Under the pieces are notes generated by a model, which worked only from the letters and a program-made list of their open reading frames with translations, searched no databases and was not told where the DNA came from. DNA of 64,000 bases from contig OZ219926.1 of the NCBI GenBank assembly GCA_964291405.2, positions 3,424,001 to 3,488,000 of the forward strand, given 5' to 3'. Shown piece after piece: positions 4,895 to 61,726 of the stretch. Both the position numbers and the translations under genes were made by a program. Numbering within the stretch: the first letter of the stretch is position 1; each line of letters begins with the position of its first letter. Source of the stretch: Thermodesulfobacteriota bacterium (GTDB taxonomy: Bacteria; Desulfobacterota; Binatia; Bin18).

Positions 4895-5449
4895 TTATAG
4901 TTCCTCCACTACAATCTGATCGTTGGTGTATACGCAGATAGCTCCGGCGATGCGCATGGCCTCCTCAACAATCCGGACTGCATCCAGAGGCGTATGGGCG
5001 ACTAATGCGCGGGCCGCTGCCAGGGCATAATTGCCGCCCGACCCGATGGCGAGAACGCCGTCGTCGGGCTCAAGCACATCTCCGCTCCCGGAGATCAGCA
5101 GAGATGACTCATGATCGACGACCGCCATGAGCGCTTCAAGGCGCCGTAAGACCCGGTCCGCACGCCAGTCCCGTGCCAGTTCGACTGCGGCCCGTCGGAG
5201 GTTGCCATTATATTCTTCCAACTTGCCTTCGAATTTTTCGCACAGGGTAATGGCATCCGCCGTCCCGCCCGCAAAGCCCGCCAGAATGCGATCCTTATAT
5301 AAGCGGCGTACTTTCCGCGCGGCGTGCTTGACGACAGTGTCTCCGAGACTGACCTGCCCGTCTCCCGCCATGGCAACCTTGCCGTCACGGCGGACGGTGA
5401 GAATAGTTGTTCCATGCATGGGTGCGCTCACCGTATATCCTCCAACCAC
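4895..5449 (-). CDS. hslV: ATP-dependent protease peptidase subunit HslV
   Basis: [10 protein letters not shown] (catalytic N-terminal Thr after processing), [17 protein letters not shown]. The true start may be the Met at 5419. Confidence 0.95.
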
Positions 5450-5533
5450 CGGATACTCATAGCATAGGGTCTTGAATGAACTATTGCAGGCGACGTTATA
5501 GAGGATGCAGGGGGTGAGTCACAAGAGGCCAGC

Positions 5534-6478
5534 TCAGGCTCGCGGGTGTGCCTTGTCATACACTTGGGTGAGCCGGTCTAAATTGACGTGGGTGTAGCGC
5601 TGTGTGGTGGACAGGCTGGAATGCCCCAATAACTCCTGGATCGCCCGTAGGTCAGCTCCTGCATCAAGCAAATGGGTTGCAAAGGTGTGGCGCAGTGCGT
5701 GGGGACTGATCTTGTGAGCCAGACCGCACTGCTTGGCATAGCTGGCCACAAGTCGAGCTACACTCCGAGGAGTTAAGCGTCCACCGCGTTGGTTGAGAAA
5801 AACAGGCCTGGCGTCACCTGCCGACACGTCGTGGGACGTTGGTTGATAATTATTGCCGAGCAAGGCCGGGATCTCTGCCCGATACCGGTGTAGCGTGTCA
5901 AGCGCTGTGCGGCCGATCGGTACAATCCGTTCCTTCTGTCCCTTCCCCTTCACCCGCAGGACTTCGAGGTTGGGGTCGACATCCGCCCAGTTCAGGCCGG
6001 TTAATTCACTGACGCGGAGCCCGCACGAATAGAGCACTTCGAGTATGGCCCGGTCACGCAGCTCGGCGGGAGTATCCGGTGCAGGCGTGTCTAAGAGCCG
6101 AAACATATCGTCAACCGGGAGATAGGTGGGAAGGGGATGGTCTTGCTTGGGCGAACTCAGGTGCAGGGTCGGGTCTTGGTCAATCACGGCCTCGCGTAGC
6201 AAGAAGCGAAAAAAGCTCTTGAGTGCCGAGAGCTTCCGACTAATCGAGCTTTTCGTATGCTGTCGATACAAGGTAGACAAAAAAGCCTGAACGATGTGGT
6301 GGCTGATCTGGGTGACATCGACCTGATCAGGCTCCGCCTGTTCTGTCGGCTTTTCAACAAAAGCGAAGAATTGGTACAGATCGCTGCAATAGTTCCGCAG
6401 AGTATGGGTAGAGACATTTTTCTCTACCTCCAGATAGACGGTGTAGCGGTCAAACAATTCGTGGAGTTCTGGTGTCAT
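5534..6478 (-). CDS. xerC: Tyrosine recombinase XerC
   Basis: RDRAILEVLYSCGLRVSEL, GKGQKER, HALRHTFATHLL, LGHSSLSTTQRY; classic xerC-hslV-hslU order. Confidence 0.88.
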   Translation of the reverse strand: MTPELHELFDRYTVYLEVEKNVSTHTLRNYCSDLYQFFAFVEKPTEQAEPDQVDVTQISHHIVQAFLSTLYRQHTKSSISRKLSALKSFFRFLLREAVIDQDPTLHLSSPKQDHPLPTYLPVDDMFRLLDTPAPDTPAELRDRAILEVLYSCGLRVSELTGLNWADVDPNLEVLRVKGKGQKERIVPIGRTALDTLHRYRAEIPALLGNNYQPTSHDVSAGDARPVFLNQRGGRLTPRSVARLVASYAKQCGLAHKISPHALRHTFATHLLDAGADLRAIQELLGHSSLSTTQRYTHVNLDRLTQVYDKAHPRA

Positions 6479-53686: not shown

Positions 53687-55435
53687 ATGAGTACCCACGC
53701 GTCCAAGCCTGGTTCCAGCATTCGCTACCAGCCCGACGAGAAACTTCCGGCGGCGCTTGCCCTCGGCCTCGCTCTGCAACTCGCCGCTCTCCTTTTGCCC
53801 GGTATCGTGCTGATTCCGACGACCATGTTCCAGGCCGTCGGCGCGACCGATGTCTTCCTGTTGTGGGCCGTATCTGCCTCCGTCATAGCCTGTGGTGTCA
53901 CCACGCTGCTGCAAGCGGTTCGGGTCGGCCCGGTCGGTGCAGGCTATATCCTGACGACAGGACCACCCGGAATCGCTATCGCGGTCAGCGCCATGGCGGT
54001 CGCCGCGGGCGGTCCGGCCTTGCTCGCCACCATGGTCTTCATCATGGCTCTCTTCCAGTTTGTGTTCTCCGCGCGTCTTTCGCTGTTCCGGCGGCTCCTG
54101 ACTCCGACCATCACGGGAACGGTGTTCATGCTGACGCCGGTTACGGTCATGCCGATTATCTTCAATCAGTTGAAGAACGTGCCGGACGGAACCCCGGCAT
54201 TGGCCGCTCCTCTGAGTGCTCTGGCGACCCTCCTCGTCGCTGTTGGCATCATGCTGAAGGCGACGGGGTCGCTGCGCCTCTGGGCGCCGGGCATCGGTAT
54301 TGCCGCCGGCTCAGCGATCGCCGGGGTTTTCGGTCTCTACGACATCGACCGCGTCGCTGAGGCTTCGTGGATTGGCCTCCCGAGGGCCGAATGGCCGGGC
54401 TTCGATCTCAACTTCGGGACGGCTTTCTGGGGGCTTCTTCCGGCGTTTCTGTTCATCGCCCTGCTCTGCACGGTCCAAACGATCAGCAGTGCCGTTTCCA
54501 TTCAGCGCCTATCCTGGCGTCAGCCCCGGGCGGTGGATTTCCGAGCGGTGCAAGGGGCGGTAGCCGCAGACGGCGTCGGCAATCTCCTGTCCGGCCTCGC
54601 GGGAACAATGCCGAACGGGTTCCGTCCGACGGGCGCGGCGATGGCTGAGCTGACCGGAATCAACTCCCCCAGTGTCGGAGTCGTCCTCGGGGCATTGCTC
54701 ATCACGCTCGCCTTCCTGCCGAAAGTGCTCGCCGTATTTCTGGCGATACCGAGCCCGGTTATCGCCGCTTTTATTACCATAACGATGGCAACGATTTTCA
54801 TCCTGGGTATAAAGGTCGTCGTTCAGGATGGGCTCGACTATCGCAGGGGCTTAATCGTCGGCGTCGCGTTCTGGCTTGGAGTCGGCTTTCAGAATGGCGT
54901 GATATTTCCCGAGTATGTATTGGAGTTCGCGGGAGGTCTGCTGCGGAACGGGATGATAGCCGGCGGCCTCGTCGCCATTGTCGTGACCCTCTTCGTGGAG
55001 CTGACGAAGCCGCGCCGCAGTCGGCTTGAGGTGGAGTTCGGCCTCTCGGCCCTGCAGAAGATCAGAGATTTTCTCGGCGTATTCGCGTCCCGCAACGGTT
55101 GGGACACAACCATGGCGGACCGCCTCGACGCCGTCGGCGAGGAGGCGTTGCTGACGCTCCTCGGGCAAGATGAAGCTGAAGAAGAGCGTCAGCGGCGGCG
55201 CTTGCTCCTGGTTGCGCATAAAGAAGACGGTGCGGCGATCCTCGAATTCGTCGCCTCGATGGGCGATGAGAACCTTCAGGATCAGATCGCGTTGCTCAGC
55301 GAGCAGCCCGCCGAAGATTTGATCGAGCGGGAAGTCTCACTTCGGCTATTGCGGCACCTCGCGTCCTCGGTTCGTCATCAACAATACCATGACGTTGACA
55401 TCGTGACCGTTCGTGTGGCAAGTCCAGACGGGTAG
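53687..55435 (+). CDS. NCS2 (xanthine/uracil permease) family protein with extra C-terminal cytoplasmic domain
   Basis: Y.PDEK..., GVTTLLQ, ADGVGNLLSG, PKV..., followed by about 140 soluble residues. Confidence 0.85.
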   Translation: MSTHASKPGSSIRYQPDEKLPAALALGLALQLAALLLPGIVLIPTTMFQAVGATDVFLLWAVSASVIACGVTTLLQAVRVGPVGAGYILTTGPPGIAIAVSAMAVAAGGPALLATMVFIMALFQFVFSARLSLFRRLLTPTITGTVFMLTPVTVMPIIFNQLKNVPDGTPALAAPLSALATLLVAVGIMLKATGSLRLWAPGIGIAAGSAIAGVFGLYDIDRVAEASWIGLPRAEWPGFDLNFGTAFWGLLPAFLFIALLCTVQTISSAVSIQRLSWRQPRAVDFRAVQGAVAADGVGNLLSGLAGTMPNGFRPTGAAMAELTGINSPSVGVVLGALLITLAFLPKVLAVFLAIPSPVIAAFITITMATIFILGIKVVVQDGLDYRRGLIVGVAFWLGVGFQNGVIFPEYVLEFAGGLLRNGMIAGGLVAIVVTLFVELTKPRRSRLEVEFGLSALQKIRDFLGVFASRNGWDTTMADRLDAVGEEALLTLLGQDEAEEERQRRRLLLVAHKEDGAAILEFVASMGDENLQDQIALLSEQPAEDLIEREVSLRLLRHLASSVRHQQYHDVDIVTVRVASPDG

Positions 55436-55486
55436 ACGTGAGGCGACCACGACTTCACCAATTTCTCAATGAAGGAGGATACGTTG

Positions 55487-55786
55487 ATGTATTTCGTGAT
55501 TTTCATAACCGACAAACCAGGTGCGGAACAGACGCGGATTGATATGATGGACACCATTCGTACCTATCTGCATGATCACCCTGATCATCCCAGCGTCAGC
55601 CTTCATCACGCCGGCCCGACGCTGGCCGAGAACGGAGAGACCATAAACGGCTCTCTCCTGGTGGTCGAAGCGCCTTCGCTTGAGGCGGTGCGGGCTTTTG
55701 TTGCGGACCATCCTCTCAACAAGGCGGGTCGCCTCGCCGAATGTCAGGTGCGTCAGTGGGACTGGCGGACGGGCTGCCCCACCTAG
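55487..55786 (+). CDS. YciI family protein
   Basis: DKPG, AGPTL, GSLLVVEA, DHPL.KAG; AGGAGG RBS. Confidence 0.85.
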   Translation: MYFVIFITDKPGAEQTRIDMMDTIRTYLHDHPDHPSVSLHHAGPTLAENGETINGSLLVVEAPSLEAVRAFVADHPLNKAGRLAECQVRQWDWRTGCPT

Positions 55787-55931
55787 GGTCCGGTCATAAC
55801 CAACGCTCCGGGCGGTACTCCGCCGCCCTCCTCAATTCGGCCCTTCTTCTGTAGTGCTGACTTGGAACTGGTGGCTGCAACTACGTCATCCGCCGGTCAG
55901 TATGACTTCCACCGGAGATACGGGGGAATGT

Positions 55932-57263
55932 GTGGAGATCAAAGACCTGATTATCGATGACCGTGAGAGAGGAATTTTCAGGGTCCACAGGTCGACCATG
56001 ACCTCCAGAGATTTGTTTCGGCGGGAACAGGCACGTATCTTCAACCGCTGCTGGATATATCTGGGACACGAGTCGGAAGTGGAAAACCCCGGAGACTACC
56101 GGCGCCGCACAGTAGCGGGCCGCCCGCTTTTCTTTATCCGTGGGAAAGACGGTCAGGTCCGGGTGTTCCTCAATTCCTGTCCCCACCGGGGTGCGTTGAT
56201 CTGCCGCCGCGACGAGGGAAACGCCGAAGTCCTGCGATGCTTCTATCACGCCTGGTCTTTCAACACCTCCGGGGAGTTGATCGGCCTCCCCGGGGAAGAC
56301 GCCTACGGCCCTTCCTTCGACCGGAGCGAACTGAGCCTGAAGGAACCACCGAGGGTCGACAGCTACCGGGGTTTTTACTTCGTGAGTTTCAACCCCGCTG
56401 TCGAAGACCTGCTCTCCTACTTGGCAGGAGCCAGAGACTACCTTGACCTGATCGTGGATCAGGCCGAGGCAGGGATGCAGGTAGTTTCCGGTTCCAACAT
56501 GTACACGATAAAGGCCAACTGGAAGCTCCTGGCCGAAAACAGCCTGGATGGATATCACCTGATCCCGACCCATCGGACTTACGTGGATTATATCGCCGGT
56601 CTGGGGACAGACGACAGCGGGGACACGATGGCGGCCCGCCCCCCCGGCGTAGCGAGAGCCTTGGGCAACGGCCATTGTGTGTCGGAGAACATCGCCCGGA
56701 GCGGCCGCCCCATCGCCCACTGGCACCCCTTATTCGGCGAAGAGGCGCGGGAACCGCTGGCGCGAGTCCGCCGGCGGTTGGTGGGAAAATACGGAGAAGA
56801 GCGCGCCTACCGGATGGCCGATACCTCTCGCAATCTGCTCATCTATCCCAACCTGATCATCCTGGACTTCGTGGCCATCACCATCAGGTATATCGAACCC
56901 CTGGCACCCGACAGCATGGAAGTCACGGCATGGCACTTGGCCCCCAGGGAGGAATCAGGCGCCAGGCTGGTCACCCGACTCGACAGTTTCCTGACGTTCC
57001 TCGGACCGGGCGGCTTTGCCACCCCGGATGATGTGGAAGCCTTGGAATCGTGTCAGACCGGCTTTCGTGCCACCGAAACCGAGTGGTCCGACCTCTCCAG
57101 GGGCATGCTCAAGCCCACCCCGGGAACGGCGGATGAGCTCCAGATGCGAGGATTCTGGCGACAATGGCACGCTCATATGCAAGGTCTGAGCAAGACCGAC
57201 GTACAGGACGGGCTCCCCACCGTCAGGGAAGCCGCGGTGGCTTCCGGATCAGGGGAACGATGA
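55932..57263 (+). CDS. Aromatic ring-hydroxylating dioxygenase alpha subunit (p-cumate dioxygenase-like)
   Basis: CPHRG...CFYHAW Rieske motif, NWKLLAENSLDGYH...H, FLGPGGFATPDD; start uncertain. Confidence 0.92.
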   Translation: MEIKDLIIDDRERGIFRVHRSTMTSRDLFRREQARIFNRCWIYLGHESEVENPGDYRRRTVAGRPLFFIRGKDGQVRVFLNSCPHRGALICRRDEGNAEVLRCFYHAWSFNTSGELIGLPGEDAYGPSFDRSELSLKEPPRVDSYRGFYFVSFNPAVEDLLSYLAGARDYLDLIVDQAEAGMQVVSGSNMYTIKANWKLLAENSLDGYHLIPTHRTYVDYIAGLGTDDSGDTMAARPPGVARALGNGHCVSENIARSGRPIAHWHPLFGEEAREPLARVRRRLVGKYGEERAYRMADTSRNLLIYPNLIILDFVAITIRYIEPLAPDSMEVTAWHLAPREESGARLVTRLDSFLTFLGPGGFATPDDVEALESCQTGFRATETEWSDLSRGMLKPTPGTADELQMRGFWRQWHAHMQGLSKTDVQDGLPTVREAAVASGSGER

Positions 57264-57754
57264 TGGCCGCTCACCCGCCGACATTGCGCGAACTGGTAGA
57301 GGATTTCCTGTTTCAGGAAGCCGCGATGCTGGATGAATGGCGCCTGGACGACTGGGTCAAGCTTTTTACCGAAGACGCCCGGTACGTGGTCCCCACCACT
57401 GATTTGCCGGAAGGGGACCCCAAACGCGACCTGGTGTTCATCAATGACGACATCACCCGGTTGCACGCCCGGGTGGCGCGGTTAACCAGCCGTCATGCGC
57501 ACCGCGAGTATCCGTGGTCGCGGACCCGCCGGTTTGTTTCCAACGTGCGGGTTGAAGAAAGCAACGATGCCGAGCTGTCGGTCACGGCAAACGTCCTGGT
57601 TTACCGGTTTCGGAGCGGGGAGGGAGCGCCTTACGTTGGCAGCATTGACTATGTCCTGCGGCGGGATGGCGGAGACTTGAGAATAGCCTATCGGCGTGCA
57701 GTGCTGGACTTGGAAGCGCTCTCGTGGCACGGGGCGGTCAGCATCATCTTTTGA
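57260..57754 (+). CDS. Aromatic ring-hydroxylating dioxygenase beta subunit
   Basis: FLFQEAAMLDEWRLDDW, HREYPWSRTRRFVSNV; ATGA overlap with the alpha gene. Confidence 0.92.
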   Translation: MMAAHPPTLRELVEDFLFQEAAMLDEWRLDDWVKLFTEDARYVVPTTDLPEGDPKRDLVFINDDITRLHARVARLTSRHAHREYPWSRTRRFVSNVRVEESNDAELSVTANVLVYRFRSGEGAPYVGSIDYVLRRDGGDLRIAYRRAVLDLEALSWHGAVSIIF

Positions 57755-57805
57755 ACCCCGGGGCAATGTGATTCGTCGAAGCCTACGGGGCCATCAGGAT
57801 GAAGG

Positions 57806-57835
57806 TTGAATACATAAAAGCAACAAGTATACAAT
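57806..57835 (+). promoter_or_regulatory. Possible sigma70 promoter of the precursor gene
   Basis: TTGAAT-N18-TACAAT in an AT-rich patch, upstream of an AGGAGGT RBS. Confidence 0.4.
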
Positions 57836-57860
57836 GCACTCAACCCATAGGAGGTGACTC

Positions 57861-58058
57861 ATGGAAGACCCGAAGGTAGGCAAGCTCCGCGAGAAGTTGG
57901 GGCTCTCTGCCAAGGACCAGCAGGAGACGGCAGGTAAGGCGATCAGCCCCAATCTGCGGAAGAAGATCTCCACCGATCCGAAACCAGGGGGGAATTTCCT
58001 TTCCGCGACCACCGATCCGAAATCAGGGGGGAATTTCCTTTCCGCGATTGGCTCGTGA
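57861..58058 (+). CDS. Putative RiPP precursor peptide with two repeated core cassettes
   Basis: AGGAGGTGA RBS; 65 aa with a Lys-rich leader then TDPKPGGNFLSAT/TDPKSGGNFLSAI; co-oriented upstream of a radical SAM peptide maturase. Confidence 0.85.
   Translation: MEDPKVGKLREKLGLSAKDQQETAGKAISPNLRKKISTDPKPGGNFLSATTDPKSGGNFLSAIGS
57970..58047. repeat. Tandem 39-bp direct repeat (2 copies) within the precursor gene
   Basis: CCACCGATCCGAAA(C/T)CAGGGGGGAATTTCCTTTCCGCGA at 57970-58008 and 58009-58047; one mismatch. Confidence 0.95.
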
Positions 58059-58120
58059 CCGATACGGCGATGCCGCTAAGCAGTCCACGTTAAGCGCGTC
58101 ATCGCCCCCTCCCCGAAGGC

Positions 58121-58144
58121 GGGCAGCTCTGAGAAGAGCTGCCC
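58121..58144 (+). other. Stable hairpin downstream of the precursor gene
   Basis: GGGCAGCTCT-GAGA-AGAGCTGCCC: 10-bp stem, GNRA loop, no U-tract. Confidence 0.7.
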
Positions 58145-58450
58145 CGTGTTGTGACGGGCCGTTATCTCGATTACGGCGTGGGGTGGTCGGTCGGAGTCAT
58201 GACCCAAACATCCGCACTTGTCCCATCGCCTGGAACCGATTAACCTACACTTCCAACGAAGCGCGGTTACTTCCTGGAGACGGACGCCGGCAAGCTGGAG
58301 TACTGTCACGTCGCCGGGGGAGGCCATTGGCTAATCTCAATCGACAAGCGTCGACGACCAGACTATCTCGGCAAAGAGGTCGTTCAAGCACGCCAGCAAC
58401 GTAATGCGAGTTCGACTCTACCAAGGCCAACCATAATACGGGTAACGAGC

Positions 58451-59626
58451 ATGCTTACCGCCACTGACAGAAGAGCAGTGAGTTTCCGCAAGCTCCGAAC
58501 GCTGGAAGTCGTATTGAAGGTCACCGAACGGTGTAACCTGGATTGCGACTATTGCTATTTCTTCAACGCGGGGGACGACAGCTACAAGAATCATGCGGCG
58601 TTTATTTCCAAGGACACGGTCGCGCTGCTCGTGCGGCGGCTTACGGAATTCTCCAAAGAGCGCAAACTTGAACGAATAGCGATTCACCTACATGGCGGCG
58701 AGCCTCTACTCATGTCAAAAGCCCAACTGGACAGCATCTGCGATGAGATTCGATCAAATCTGGCACCTGTTGTCGATCTGTCGATTACCATCCAGACCAA
58801 CGGAATGTTGATTGACCTTGAGTGGATAGAGATTTTTAACAGACACGGCGTCGCGGTGGGTATCAGCCTTGACGGGACGCAGGAGGACAACGACGCCCAT
58901 CGACTCGATCATCGTGGCAGGTCCTCATATCAGGCGACCGTTCGCGGTCTGGAGCTGTGCCAGCGACACCTGAGTCAGCCGCCCGGCGTCTTGGCCGTGA
59001 TTGCCGAGAACTCCGACCCTAAGGCAATCTACGAACACTTCCGACACGGTCTTGGCCTCGGGCGCCTCGACTTTCTCCTCCCCGACCTGAATCACGACAA
59101 CTTCGACGGCGACGCAGAGGCATATGGTGAATTCCTGATCCAGATCTTCGACATGATGGTGAATGACGAGGAGCCCGTCAGTGTCAGAATCATCGATCAT
59201 TTTCTCGCGAGCATCTACGGATACGGAAACTTCCTCTTCGGTGCCGGGCGTGGTGACCCCGAATATCTGCTCATCACCGTTTCGTCCGATGGCGGAGTCG
59301 GGCCTGACGACACCCTGAGATCCACGAAGTTTTGGAGTGGATATGAATACAGGGACTTAAGGAGTTACCGCATTGAGGAGATAATCCACGATCCGTTGTT
59401 TCAAGAATTTGAGCTTGCCAAGAAGACGACCGCATCCGCATGTTCAGGTTGCTGTTGGCGTAATATCTGTGGCAGTGGCCAGCCGGTCCACCGGTATGCG
59501 ACGCGCAATGGATTCGACAACCCGACCGTCTATTGCAAGGGACTGGATGGGTTCTACACCCATGTTTTGAGGTATTTGGCCTTACACGGAGAGCCTTTGG
59601 AGAAGATCAGTGCAAACTTGGTCTGA
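58451..59626 (+). CDS. Radical SAM/SPASM peptide maturase, XyeB/FxsB-like (cyclophane-forming)
   Basis: LKVTERCNLDCDYCY (Cx3Cx2C), HGGEPLL, IQTNG, GISLDG, DFLLPDLNHD, DDTLRST, C-terminal Cx2Cx5Cx21C. Confidence 0.88.
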   Translation: MLTATDRRAVSFRKLRTLEVVLKVTERCNLDCDYCYFFNAGDDSYKNHAAFISKDTVALLVRRLTEFSKERKLERIAIHLHGGEPLLMSKAQLDSICDEIRSNLAPVVDLSITIQTNGMLIDLEWIEIFNRHGVAVGISLDGTQEDNDAHRLDHRGRSSYQATVRGLELCQRHLSQPPGVLAVIAENSDPKAIYEHFRHGLGLGRLDFLLPDLNHDNFDGDAEAYGEFLIQIFDMMVNDEEPVSVRIIDHFLASIYGYGNFLFGAGRGDPEYLLITVSSDGGVGPDDTLRSTKFWSGYEYRDLRSYRIEEIIHDPLFQEFELAKKTTASACSGCCWRNICGSGQPVHRYATRNGFDNPTVYCKGLDGFYTHVLRYLALHGEPLEKISANLV

Positions 59627-59667
59627 GACGACCGTAATGCGTCGTGGTTGGAAACGCGCATCGACAG

Positions 59668-61023
59668 TCAGGTCTGAGGTCCCTGATCGGTTGGCGGCGC
59701 GCCTTGTTGGCAGATACGCCCGAACACGGGCCAGGCCAGCGCCAGCCCGATCAGTCCGAATTCCAGCAGACGGGCCCAGAGCGGCTGCTGATAGGCTTGC
59801 AACTCGTAGTCGTTCACATTGAGCCCGGTAATATAAGAGATGAGGACGGCCATGGAGGCCGTCCAGGTCCATACGCTGGGAAAGATCGCCGCAAAGGGCA
59901 GCAGCCAGAGCAGATACCACGGATTGATGACCGGAGACGCCGCCAGCAGCACCCCGTAGACCCAGTCGCCGCGCGGAACGGACCGCCCCGCGTCCCGGCA
60001 ATACTGCCAGTAGTACCAGCCACAGAACAGGGCGCAGGCCAGTCCCAAAACGAGCTTGGCCTCAAAGGCCGGCAGCACCAGCGTCAACAGCCCAAAGGCC
60101 GCGGAGTTGAACTCCCACTCTCGGGCGAAGACCAGCAGCGAGTGCAGGTCCGTGCCGCCACCCAGGGCGAACGGCGCGTATAGGGCCGTCAGCGTAGCGC
60201 CGAACAGGACCCAGTGCCGGATTGAGGCGCCGACCAGCACGAACGGCACCAGCACCAGAGCGAATATCTTGGCCCCGCAGGCCAGACCCAGACACACCGC
60301 TGTGCTCTGCCAGCGGTAGTTCCGGGCCAGGACAAGCGCGGCCAGCAGCAGGCCGACGCCGATGCCGTCCGGGTGAGCGGTAAAGGCAATTTCTTTGACC
60401 ACTAGCGGACACCAGGCGTAGAGCATGACGTTCCGCGCCGGCGCCAGGCGTAGCAGCAGGACCACAGTGGCAAGGTCAATGCTAATCAGCAGAACCTGCA
60501 AGGCCGCGATGCTGCCCGGTCGCAGCCAGTAGCCGAGCAGGAAAACGAACTGTGTCGTCGGAGCGTAGATGGTCGGCAACTCGGGATGGTTGATCCCATC
60601 CAGCACGCTGTGAAACGTGGAGGGAACGGTAGGGTCGGTGAAAAACGCTTCCGGGACGGCGGCGTAGGGCGTACCGGCGGTGGCAAAACGATAACCGTCC
60701 CACAGGTAGCGATAGAAGTCGTCTTCAAACAGTGGCCCGCCGACCAGCCCGCAGATTCTGAAGGCTACGGCCCAGAAGAGCAGGCAGTCGAGCGGGAACG
60801 GTTCGTCACGCCGGTGACAGTACAGGAAGAGGCCGAATACCGGCAGGCCGGTCCAGGCCATCAGGATGAAGAAGGCGACCAGGTCGGGTTCACCAAGGGG
60901 ACGTGCCAAAAAGGCGAGGGCGGCGTAGCCCAGGGTACAGCCAAGACCGACCGCGTCCACCAGCCGACGCGTCTCCACGCTCGGTTGCCCACGCGCGTTT
61001 GCGCCGGCTATCGTCTCAAGCAT
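59668..61023 (-). CDS. Polytopic GT-C (GT87-like) membrane glycosyltransferase
   Basis: EDDFYRYLWDG, INHP..PTIY.P, YAWCPL, WEFN, PWYLLW. Confidence 0.75.
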   Translation of the reverse strand: MLETIAGANARGQPSVETRRLVDAVGLGCTLGYAALAFLARPLGEPDLVAFFILMAWTGLPVFGLFLYCHRRDEPFPLDCLLFWAVAFRICGLVGGPLFEDDFYRYLWDGYRFATAGTPYAAVPEAFFTDPTVPSTFHSVLDGINHPELPTIYAPTTQFVFLLGYWLRPGSIAALQVLLISIDLATVVLLLRLAPARNVMLYAWCPLVVKEIAFTAHPDGIGVGLLLAALVLARNYRWQSTAVCLGLACGAKIFALVLVPFVLVGASIRHWVLFGATLTALYAPFALGGGTDLHSLLVFAREWEFNSAAFGLLTLVLPAFEAKLVLGLACALFCGWYYWQYCRDAGRSVPRGDWVYGVLLAASPVINPWYLLWLLPFAAIFPSVWTWTASMAVLISYITGLNVNDYELQAYQQPLWARLLEFGLIGLALAWPVFGRICQQGAPPTDQGPQT

Positions 61024-61054
61024 ATCCCGCCCGGCACGACAGGTCGTTACCTGC

Positions 61055-61726
61055 TCATGACCCGTCTCGTTTCTGTCCCCAGGTATCCCAATGGGTCAGT
61101 TCGGTAGCCGGAATACGCCGGGCCGCCTTGAAATCCGTGCCTGTATAATAGGCCACGGGCAAGAGCACGCCTTGTGTCACCGAGTCCGGAATATTGAGCA
61201 GCTTGGCCGCTTCGTCGGCGTGTTTGAGATGCACGGTGGTCCAACAGCAGCCCAGGCCCCGCGCACGGGCGGCCAGCATAAATGACCAGGCCGCCGGCAG
61301 AATGGAGCCGTAGGCCGTAGCCTGATCAAAAAGCGGTACGTCGCGGACCTGATCCTCGATGCAGAACAGCACATGGACCGGAACCTCATGCAGATGATCG
61401 ACCAGATAGACGGCGGAGTCGATCATGCGCTGGGTTTCGGTTGATGCGGGTCCTGTGGTCCCATACGTCGCGTCGTCGGCCTGCTCCCAGTAGGACTCAA
61501 ACGCCTGTTTGTAGAGTCGCGCGATGCCAGCCCGTTTTTCGGCGTCGTGAATCACCACAAAGCGCCATTTCTGGGTATTAGTGGCTGAGGGGCTCTGCAC
61601 CGCCACTTCCAGACATTCTTCGATCAATGCCGGTGGGACCGGACGGGTCAGATCGAGGCGCTTCCGTATGGAGCGTGTGGTGGTTAAGAGCGTGTCACAT
61701 GTACTCAGGTCCAAATCCGTATTCAT
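61055..61726 (-). CDS. Nitroreductase family protein
   Basis: LLTTTRSIRKRLD, SPSATN.Q.W.F, SILPAAWSFMLAARARGLG. Confidence 0.92.
   Translation of the reverse strand: MNTDLDLSTCDTLLTTTRSIRKRLDLTRPVPPALIEECLEVAVQSPSATNTQKWRFVVIHDAEKRAGIARLYKQAFESYWEQADDATYGTTGPASTETQRMIDSAVYLVDHLHEVPVHVLFCIEDQVRDVPLFDQATAYGSILPAAWSFMLAARARGLGCCWTTVHLKHADEAAKLLNIPDSVTQGVLLPVAYYTGTDFKAARRIPATELTHWDTWGQKRDGS

What the first reader, a model, noticed from the sequence alone, without database searches (positions are those of the whole stretch)
57806..59626. Candidate new triceptide-like RiPP system: cassette precursor plus XyeB/FxsB-like radical SAM cyclophane synthase
Seen: a 65-aa ORF with a strong RBS lies about 390 bp upstream of a co-oriented 391-aa radical SAM protein, between unrelated catabolic and membrane genes. 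Known: cyclophane-forming rSAM enzymes (XyeB, FxsB, GrrM) crosslink an aromatic residue to the residue at +2 (Omega-X-X). From memory of the family, LK..ERCN..C.YCY.FN, HGGEPL, DFL.PD..HD and DDTLRST are XyeB-like. The precursor's only aromatic residues are two Phe, each in F-L-S, an FxS motif. Inference: the product is a Phe-to-Ser crosslinked peptide from a precursor that does not look like XyeA, FxSxx-COOH or GrrA precursors to me.
Basis: partly seen in the sequence, partly recalled or inferred. Interest (0 to 1): 0.9.

Follow-up and report, generated by a model that had tools for sequence, protein, structure and literature searches.

The report
Two-gene Phe–Ser cyclophane peptide module
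A small peptide gene with two copies of the motif GGNFLSA sits next to a radical SAM enzyme of the cyclophane-forming "triceptide" kind, forming a compact, uncharacterised but unsurprising member of a known class of modified peptides.

Summary
A 65-aa ORF (57861-58058, AGGAGG 6 nt upstream) precedes by 392 bp a 391-aa radical SAM protein (58451-59626).

The enzyme is full-length homologous to cyclophane ("triceptide") synthases, but scores below every curated cutoff: YhhB 302/445, XyeB 278/450, FxsB 272/370. Its best solved relative is ChlB (E 5e-55).

The peptide matches no family model. All 20 orthologous loci found nevertheless keep it upstream on the same strand. It has a conserved leader (MEDxKxxKLREKLGIS...) and 1-4 cassettes of GGNF(V/I/L)SA. 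The 50 cassettes counted (18 precursors) occur in 40 DNA versions that all encode this motif. Leader dN/dS is 0.18.

A complex model places the leader on the enzyme's C-terminal helices and the first cassette in the barrel (0.77 against 0.09 for the best control).

The two genes are a discrete 1,844-bp indel (57805-59648) relative to a close relative.

Eighteen of the 20 orthologous loci add a MicC-like alpha-KG/Fe oxygenase directly downstream. This genome lacks it.

My reading is that the enzyme links Phe to Ser-C-beta, giving two cyclophanes and a loss of 4 Da. The chemistry is inferred, not shown. This is a new member of a known kind, of moderate interest.

The parts
57805..59648 (+). The whole module as a discrete indel: promoter-like site, precursor gene, spacer and rSAM gene.
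   Evidence: The same-genus genome G025 (L040) is collinear with window 55001-57804 (96.8% identity) and 59649-61500 (91.7%). In place of 57805-59648 it holds 303 bp of unrelated sequence. Module GC is 0.55 against 0.60 in both flanks.
57806..57835 (+). Promoter-like site TTGAAT-18-TACAAT.
   Evidence: a consensus match only, 1 found against 0.8 expected in shuffles.
57849..57854 (+). Ribosome-binding site AGGAGG, 6 nt before the ATG.
   Evidence: GAGG-type sites stand at the same place in most orthologues.
57861..58058 (+). Precursor peptide gene, 65 aa: a leader of about residues 1-38 followed by a core with two cassettes.
   Evidence: It is conserved in 20 of 20 orthologous loci. Invariant residues are M1 E2 D3 L9 R10 K12 L13 G14 N31 L32 K35 G43 G44 N45 F46 S48 A49. 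Median leader dN/dS is 0.175.
57987..58007 (+). Cassette 1, GGNFLSA (residues 43-49). F46-L47-S48 is the proposed cyclophane.
   Evidence: In the complex model, residues 43 and 46-50 touch the enzyme barrel.
58026..58046 (+). Cassette 2, GGNFLSA (residues 56-62). F59-L60-S61 is the proposed cyclophane.
57970..58047 (+). Tandem 39-nt duplication (97% identical) that produces the two cassettes.
   Evidence: family D1.
58121..58144 (+). Perfect 10-bp stem with a 4-nt loop, 63 nt after the precursor stop. It may be an intercistronic stem-loop.
   Evidence: For 58059-58200, z = -2.5, and 4 of 200 shuffles fold at least as well. Stable hairpins of unrelated sequence occur in the spacers of the other loci (no shuffle control). 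This is weak evidence.
58451..59626 (+). Radical SAM cyclophane (triceptide) synthase homologue, 391 aa. CX3CX2C at C28/C32/C35; C-terminal C331-x2-C334-x5-C340...C362.

Best explanation
This is a minimal two-gene RiPP module. The 65-aa peptide is the substrate. Its conserved leader (residues about 2-15, then N31-L32-x-x-K35) docks on the C-terminal helices of the radical SAM enzyme, and a GGNFLSA cassette enters the barrel. The enzyme cleaves SAM reductively, and the 5'-deoxyadenosyl radical abstracts H from C-beta of Ser (position 3 of the motif). That carbon radical attacks the ring of Phe (position 1), and one electron leaves through the single C-terminal auxiliary cluster. The result is a three-residue Phe-x-Ser cyclophane in each cassette, twice in this peptide (minus 4 Da). 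In most relatives a third gene follows, encoding a MicC-like alpha-KG/Fe(II) oxygenase. It probably acts on the invariant Gly-Gly before each cyclophane. That gene is absent here, so in this genome the product either stays uncut or is trimmed by unlinked peptidases. What is shown: gene anatomy, family placement, co-conservation, selection, the indel and the modelled docking. What is inferred: the crosslink type and atoms, the order of steps, processing, and any activity.
For: Family placement: YhhB 301.6 bits, XyeB 278.3, FxsB 272.3, all full length; anSME only 154. ChlB, a cyclophane synthase, is the best PDB match (E 5e-55, residues 21-374 on 11-366). A same-genus paralogue passes the YhhB cutoff (507.5 against 445) and has a YhhA precursor (56.7 against 36), so the models discriminate.

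Co-conservation: the precursor is found upstream on the same strand in 20 of 20 orthologous loci at 64-99% enzyme identity.

Selection: 50 cassettes from 18 precursors occur in 40 DNA versions, and all encode GGNF(V/I/L)SA. Leader dN/dS has a median of 0.175 over 124 pairs.

Complex model: score 0.77, best of 3 controls 0.09. That mark was reached by 58 of 80 solved complexes and 2 of 110 mismatched pairs. The runs share at least 39% of their contacts and the partner's pLDDT is at least 61. Leader residues 2-15 contact enzyme residues 370-391, and residues 43 and 46-50 contact the barrel.

Precedent: Ser as the third residue is established for His-Ala-Ser in minviopeptin (PMC12912966). Triceptide synthases are reported to turn Phe motifs into paracyclophanes (PMC11499958).

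Expression, a weak hint: contigs from 4 of 4 RNA libraries (3 studies), 90-99% alike, cover the precursor and parts of the enzyme gene.
Against: There is no biochemical evidence. The enzyme falls below every curated family cutoff, so its chemistry cannot be transferred by equivalence. The MicC-like partner that 18 of 20 relatives keep is missing here. Only 2 of 28 genomes of the genus carry the pair. The complex score may reflect the model's memory of solved ChlB structures. RNA-library contigs do not prove transcription, and they come from relatives rather than from this strain. No protease or exporter is linked to the module.
Confidence: 0.62

Rival explanations
1. The peptide and enzyme are a true pair, but the chemistry differs. 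Possibilities after H-abstraction at the invariant Ser, Asn or Ala include oxidation of Ser (as sulfatase maturases do), an ether or C-N link, epimerisation, or a crosslink that does not use Ser C-beta.
For: The enzyme is below all curated cutoffs. N45 and A49 are as invariant as F46 and S48. Relatives in this superfamily make C-C, C-N and C-O links (PMC11499958 abstract). anSME is a detectable homologue at 154 bits.
Against: The three best-scoring families and the best solved structure are all cyclophane formers. The only variable core position is the middle residue of F-x-S, which is the signature of an aromatic-X-X motif. The peptide has no Cys or Trp.
Confidence: 0.17
2. The module in this genome is a stranded remnant. 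It was acquired or retained without its MicC-like partner, and it no longer yields a mature product.
For: The oxygenase gene is absent from the window and from the 97.5%-complete genome (the positive control gave 5 of 5). It is present in 18 of 20 orthologous loci. The pair is patchy within the genus, and one close relative has an empty site.
Against: Both ORFs are intact and keep all family-invariant residues. The RBS and a promoter-like site are present. The same two-gene form is kept at 99% (enzyme) and 97% (peptide) identity in G004, and five further protein clusters lie at 92-98% identity. L023 also lacks the oxygenase and still has intact genes.
Confidence: 0.13
3. The small ORF is not the substrate. 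The enzyme matures some other protein, and the ORF is incidental.
For: The peptide matches no known family. A 392-bp gap separates the two genes.
Against: Co-occurrence is 20 of 20, the cassettes are under peptide-level selection, and the complex model passes its controls. The two genes are gained or lost together as a single 1.84-kb indel.
Confidence: 0.03

Closest known systems
ChlB/ChlA (multiple cyclophane synthase; PDB 9gm3, 9gmc)
   Same: It is the best solved relative (E 5e-55, near full length). It has the same CX3CX2C motif and the same C-terminal Cx2Cx5C...C pattern. Neither protein has Cys at the three positions where anSME has Cys in the stretch before that.
   Different: The PDB entry is named the radical SAM domain of ChlB. 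According to a reference title seen in PMC12912966 (the paper itself was not read), ChlB proteins are fused to an alpha-KG-HExxH domain. The native ChlB motif is YDR (PMC11499958). Here the enzyme stands alone and the motif is F-x-S.
YhhB/YhhA (His-Asn-Arg cyclophanes)
   Same: It is the best NCBIfam hit (301.6 bits over the full-length profile). The layout is also precursor followed by enzyme.
   Different: The score is below the 445-bit cutoff. The precursor does not match the YhhA model. A true YhhA/YhhB pair, followed by a 2OG-oxygenase-like gene, exists as a separate system in same-genus genomes at 33-35% identity.
FxsB/FxsA (FxSxx-COOH system) and XyeB/XyeA
   Same: The enzymes are homologous over their full length (272 and 278 bits). 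The F-x-S motif resembles the motif that names the Fxs precursors.
   Different: The scores are below the cutoffs of 370 and 450. The peptide ends ...FLSAIGS, so F-x-S is followed by four residues rather than two. The motif is repeated internally 1-4 times, and no precursor model matches.
Minviopeptin pathway MicA/B/C/D (PMC12912966)
   Same: It is a triceptide system with a Ser-containing cyclophane (HAS). MicC is an alpha-KG/Fe oxygenase that cuts the N-C-alpha bond of the first Gly in ...S|GG-FTK, which is a Gly-Gly just before a Phe cyclophane. The third gene of this family's relatives is a MicC homologue: profile E 1e-5, with the triad H124/D126/H213 and R152 aligned to MicC H160/D162/H253 and R188.
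   Different: The window has no MicC-like gene, no ADP-ribosyltransferase and no transporter. MicB was found with a daropeptide synthase as query, so it is a different enzyme clade. The cassettes here carry an extra invariant Asn between GG and Phe.

Membership tests
Radical SAM / SPASM-type peptide maturase | CX3CX2C SAM-cluster motif plus a C-terminal Cys-rich auxiliary-cluster domain | tested here: met
   C28-x3-C32-x2-C35. Pfam Radical_SAM scores 59.5 bits against a cutoff of 29.5. C331, C334, C340 and C362 are invariant in 26 sequences. Pfam SPASM scores only 16.7 against 21.5. Three of the Cys positions of anSME upstream of this motif, and a fourth just after it, are not Cys here. The assignment of those positions to the first auxiliary cluster is recalled, not taken from a call.
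Triceptide synthases (three-residue cyclophane-forming enzymes), broad group | Full-length homology to characterised members, closer than to non-cyclophane SPASM enzymes | tested here: met
   YhhB, XyeB and FxsB score 272-302 bits, against anSME at 154 and all others at 126 or less. ChlB E 5e-55.
Triceptide synthases, broad group | An adjacent precursor with a conserved aromatic-X-X motif | tested here: met
   F-(V/I/L)-S lies within GGNFxSA in 50 of 50 cassettes, and the precursor is present at 20 of 20 loci.
Triceptide synthases, broad group | Formation of a C-C bond from the aromatic ring to C-beta of residue 3 (minus 2 Da per motif) | not testable with these tools
   This needs co-expression with MS/MS and NMR.
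YhhB (NF041707) | Score at or above the curated cutoff of 445 bits | tested here: not met
   301.6 bits. The control, L006, scores 507.5.
XyeB (TIGR04496) | Score at or above the curated cutoff of 450 bits | tested here: not met
   278.3 bits.
FxsB (TIGR04269) | Score at or above the curated cutoff of 370 bits | tested here: not met
   272.3 bits.
GrrM/OscB (TIGR04261) | Score at or above the curated cutoff of 310 bits | tested here: not met
   116.6 bits.
FxSxx-COOH precursors (FxsA) | F-x-S followed by exactly two residues at the C terminus (the feature is recalled from the family's name) | tested here: not met
   The peptide ends F-L-S-A-I-G-S. The orthologues end in other tails. No NCBIfam hit at E<=10.
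Anaerobic sulfatase maturase (TIGR03942) | Score at or above the curated cutoff of 349 bits | tested here: not met
   154.4 bits.
MicC-like alpha-KG/Fe oxygenase as a third gene of the system | Presence of the gene in this locus or genome | tested here: not met
   There is no match in the window or in the genome with a single protein or a profile. The profile found it in 5 of 5 control genomes.

The most novel reading that the evidence does not exclude
In the wider GGNFxSA family, the invariant Gly-Gly before each Phe-x-Ser cyclophane is the cut site of the MicC-like oxygenase. Precursors with 1-4 cassettes would then be diced oxidatively, with no protease, into several copies of a short cyclophane peptide carrying an amidated C terminus and an oxidised N-terminal Gly. 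The window's lineage has lost the dicer and makes a leader-attached bis-cyclophane, or depends on unlinked peptidases. It would be a natural 'before processing' form of the pathway, moving as a 1.84-kb two-gene unit.
Probability: 0.22. Interest if true: 0.7.

Novelty: new member of a known kind. Interest (0 to 1): 0.45.

Why it matters
The finding defines an uncharacterised clade of cyclophane synthases together with its own precursor family. That family has a conserved leader and 1-4 GGNF(V/I/L)SA cassettes, and no curated model or searchable paper names it. The DNA runs holding this stretch whose organism label was shown uncoded are all labelled sponge metagenome, and all 20 orthologous loci come from uncultured MAGs. 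The pair is small enough (65 + 391 aa) for a direct co-expression test. The family also offers a clean test of whether MicC-type oxygenases excise repeated cores at Gly-Gly. It does not change how these systems are understood: the enzyme class, the motif logic and Ser as a crosslink partner are all already known.

Tried and rejected

2. The first AF2 model of the downstream oxygenase, from 17 sequences, was poor (pLDDT 48) and was not used. A 105-sequence alignment gave pLDDT 94.4.

3. My ORF clustering missed the oxygenase gene in L018 and undercounted it at 17 loci. tblastn corrected the count to 18 of 20.

4. Rfam found nothing in 57500-58600 at E<=1.

5. The terminator scan found no terminator between the two genes. 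Its one hit lies inside the enzyme gene and is below what shuffles give.

6. The 118-aa ORF in the spacer (58048-58404) is rejected as a gene. It is Arg-rich. The spacer is 392 bp here against 328 bp in L017, a difference that is not a multiple of three, and it ranges from 73 to 559 bp in the other loci.

7. A phylum-wide sample of 400 genomes gave no further homologue at E<=1e-50, so no loci of the 37-42% identity neighbours could be fetched. Their precursors were therefore not examined.

8. L037-L039 (24-33% identity over 138 residues or fewer) were dropped as unrelated radical SAM proteins.

9. In the RNA-library contigs, the spacer (58192-58413) and both flanks have no cover. Nothing is concluded from that. 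Contig word depths were higher for the precursor than for the enzyme pieces in three runs, but the tool says such depths cannot rank genes.

11. The literature string search for the cassette and leader motifs returned 0 papers. The 9GM3 search returned only unrelated papers.
Full report
**Observation**

The ORFs are as described.
- A 65-aa ORF lies at 57861-58058 on the + strand. AGGAGG sits at 57849-57854, 6 nt before the ATG.
- A 391-aa ORF lies at 58451-59626 on the same strand, 392 bp downstream.
- The peptide reads M1...S37 T D P K P G G N F L S A T T D P K S G G N F L S A I G S. Its only aromatic residues are F46 and F59, each in F-L-S.
- The two cassettes come from a 39-nt tandem duplication that is 97% identical (57970-58047).
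- A sigma-70-like site (TTGAAT-18-TACAAT, 57806-57835) precedes the gene. One such site in 2.2 kb is what shuffles also give.

**The enzyme**

Pfam sees a Radical_SAM domain (59.5 bits) and a sub-threshold SPASM domain (16.7 against 21.5).

NCBIfam gives three near-equal, full-length best hits, all cyclophane formers and all below their curated cutoffs:

| Family | Score (bits) | Cutoff (bits) |
|---|---|---|
| YhhB | 301.6 | 445 |
| XyeB | 278.3 | 450 |
| FxsB | 272.3 | 370 |
| Anaerobic sulfatase maturase | 154.4 | 349 |
| GrrM/OscB | 116.6 | 310 |

The best solved relative is the radical SAM domain of ChlB (9gm3, E 5e-55, residues 21-374 on 11-366).

The thresholds discriminate. A 33-35% identical paralogue in same-genus genomes scores 507.5 on YhhB. 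It is preceded by a 66-aa peptide rich in H-N-R that passes the YhhA model (56.7 against 36), and it is followed by a gene with an H-x-D motif.

The nearest non-orthologous homologues (37-42% identity, 8 tested) are themselves sub-threshold XyeB-like proteins at 290-336 bits. The enzyme therefore sits in an uncurated part of triceptide-synthase space.

In a 26-sequence alignment the invariant Cys are C28, C32, C35, C97, C331, C334, C340 and C362. The last four align with Cx2Cx5C...C of ChlB and of the sulfatase maturase. Three upstream Cys positions of the sulfatase maturase, and the Cys just after the Cx5C, are not Cys here or in ChlB. This suggests a single auxiliary cluster. Which cluster those Cys bind in the sulfatase maturase is recalled, not taken from a call.

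**The peptide is a real, conserved precursor**

It has no Pfam or NCBIfam match, even at E<=10.

A scan of one genome per species found 23 loci. Twenty of them (L017-L036) encode orthologues at 64-99% identity, and 3 weak partial matches were dropped. L017 is the same-genus genome G004.

All 20 carry a homologous ORF upstream on the same strand. In L022 it is interrupted by a run of N.

These ORFs share a leader, MEDxKxxKLREKLGIS...NLxKK(I/V)S, followed by one to four copies of GGNF(V/I/L)SA separated by variable spacers.

In the window plus 17 loci (L017, L022 and L034 left out as near-identical or masked), 50 cassettes occur in 40 different DNA versions. Every one encodes GGNF(V/I/L)SA.

For the first 37 codons the median dN/dS is 0.175, over 124 of 171 pairs with usable dS.

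The only variable core position is the middle residue of F-x-S. That is what an aromatic-X-X cyclophane motif predicts.

**Docking model**

The enzyme alignment, the peptide alignment, SAM and two 4Fe-4S clusters were folded together.
- The score was 0.77, against 0.09 for the best of 3 controls.
- That mark was reached by 58 of 80 solved complexes and 2 of 110 mismatched pairs. These counts hold only roughly here, because my own alignments and riding ligands were used.
- The runs share at least 39% of their contacts, and the partner's pLDDT is at least 61.
- Leader residues 2-15 lie on enzyme residues 370-391 and 335. Residues G43 and F46-T50 touch barrel residues 19-21, 75-81, 111-115, 135-137, 179-181 and 237-258.
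- ChlB structures exist, so the pass may partly be from memory. It shows likeness to that family, not binding.

**A discrete module**

The same-genus genome G025 has the Rieske dioxygenase alpha gene (98% identical) only 873 bp from the 451-aa membrane protein gene.

The aligned DNA is collinear with window 55001-57804 (96.8%) and 59649-61500 (91.7%). In place of 57805-59648 there are 303 unrelated bases.

The 1,844-bp difference is exactly promoter-like site, precursor, spacer and enzyme. No flanking repeats were seen. Module GC is 0.55 against 0.60 on both sides.

Within the genus, the orthologue was found in 2 of the 28 genomes searched, G000 and G004. None was found in an even sample of 400 genomes of the phylum. 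Whether this reflects a gain or a loss is open.

**The third gene that this genome lacks**

In 18 of the 20 orthologous loci, a gene of about 236 aa follows the enzyme directly on the same strand. L017 and L023 lack it (which corrects).

It has no Pfam or NCBIfam match. A profile of 17 members hits PDB 9vkm, 'alpha-ketoglutarate-dependent non-heme iron oxygenase MicC', at E 1e-5.

Counting along that alignment, the invariant H124, D126, H213 and R152 fall on MicC H160, D162, H253 (its facial triad) and R188 (its alpha-KG ligand), allowing for the chain's 20-residue offset.

With a 105-sequence alignment, AlphaFold gives pLDDT 94.4. Foldseek's best hits are the alpha-KG dioxygenase KdoO (E 1.8e-4, TM 0.39), followed by other alpha-KG oxygenases. 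A language-model search had also pointed to Kdo hydroxylase at 0.86, which counts as a lead only.

A search of all representatives found 963 relatives at E<=1e-3. The homologous C-terminal half is also fused to longer proteins. Four of 4 such proteins tested pass the GrrM/OscB cyclophane-synthase cutoff. This independently links the domain to cyclophane synthases.

MicC cuts the N-C-alpha bond of the first Gly in ...HAS|GG-FTK of a triceptide precursor. The upstream peptide is left amidated, and the cut strictly needs Gly (PMC12912966, sections 7, 9 and 11 read).

The cassettes here begin with an invariant Gly-Gly. That makes oxidative excision of cassettes a natural hypothesis for the family.

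The gene is absent from the window and from the 97.5%-complete genome, with both a single protein and the profile. The profile found it in 5 of 5 control genomes.

**Expression**

Sixteen runs hold half or more of the stretch's sampled words. Those shown with an uncoded organism label are sponge metagenomes.

Contigs from four RNA libraries (3 studies), 90-99% alike, cover the precursor in 4 of 4 runs and parts of the enzyme gene in 4 of 4 runs. One 1,331-nt contig runs from 57849 to 59119 with a different spacer.

These are contigs of relatives from RNA libraries. They neither prove transcription nor show a single transcript, so I count them as a weak hint.

A stem-loop at 58121-58144 follows the precursor (z = -2.5 for 58059-58200). 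Other loci have stable hairpins of unrelated sequence in the spacer (no control).

**Mechanism, rivals and comparison**

The best reading is the standard triceptide mechanism acting on F46-L47-S48 and F59-L60-S61, with probability about 0.6.

The main rivals are:
- a different chemistry on the same pair (0.17);
- a stranded module that makes no mature product (0.13);
- a peptide that is not the substrate (0.03).

The module is not a member of YhhB, XyeB, FxsB or GrrM by their own thresholds. The peptide is not an FxSxx-COOH, YhhA or other modelled precursor.

**Novelty**

Triceptides are an established class. About 3,900 putative pathways have been reported and ten maturases characterised (PMC11499958, whole text). 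[quoted passage not shown]

A full-text search for the cassette and leader strings found no paper. Searches for 'triceptide', and for cyclophane with sponge, found nothing on this family.

The key survey papers (Nguyen 2020, Sugiyama 2022, Phan & Morinaka 2024) and all supplements were not available to me. They may already list this cluster as predicted.

Verdict: a real, well-supported, uncharacterised member of a known kind, of moderate interest.

Noticed in passing
L006:1259-3206 (same-genus genome G011); also L005 and L007-L011: Seven genomes (six same-genus, one same-order, L008) carry a homologue at 31-35% identity. L006 was examined and is a canonical YhhA/YhhB triceptide system: a 66-aa precursor ending ...HAYNRTHNRHNRGR (YhhA model 56.7 bits), a YhhB enzyme (507.5 bits) and a 197-aa downstream ORF with an H-x-D motif. 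The window's own genome has no such paralogue; its only other hit is a weak one at E 6.5e-10.
   Followed up: partly
L018-L022 and L024-L036, about 5170-5985: A MicC-like alpha-KG/Fe oxygenase gene of about 236 aa follows the enzyme in 18 of 20 orthologous loci and matches no Pfam or NCBIfam model. Its C-terminal half is also found fused to GrrM/OscB-type cyclophane synthases (P0130, P0172, P0250, P0260).
   Followed up: yes
window 53687-57754: A xanthine/uracil-type permease (582 aa), a YCII protein (105 aa) and Rieske dioxygenase alpha/beta genes recur within 4 kb of the peptide/enzyme pair in many orthologous loci, in shuffled order and orientation. The Rieske alpha gene recurs in 12 of the 20 loci at 73-98% identity. 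In the genus, this Rieske alpha orthologue is found only in G000, G004 and G025. Shared ancestry or a functional link cannot be told apart.
   Followed up: partly
L036:4001-5174: In this chromosome-level MAG the orthologous enzyme gene is split into two ORFs (134 and 280 aa). This is either a frameshift or an assembly error. Its precursor and oxygenase genes are intact.
   Followed up: no
window 59668-61023 (- strand): The 451-aa membrane protein has no Pfam match. It is conserved in 23 of 28 genomes of the genus, with a second copy at about 35% identity in most. In four genomes the match is reported with one in-frame TAG, which was not examined.
   Followed up: no
window 58059-58450: The spacer between the precursor and the enzyme differs in length even from the 99%-identical relative (392 against 328 bp). 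It ranges from 73 to 559 bp across the other loci, with no conserved sequence.
   Followed up: partly
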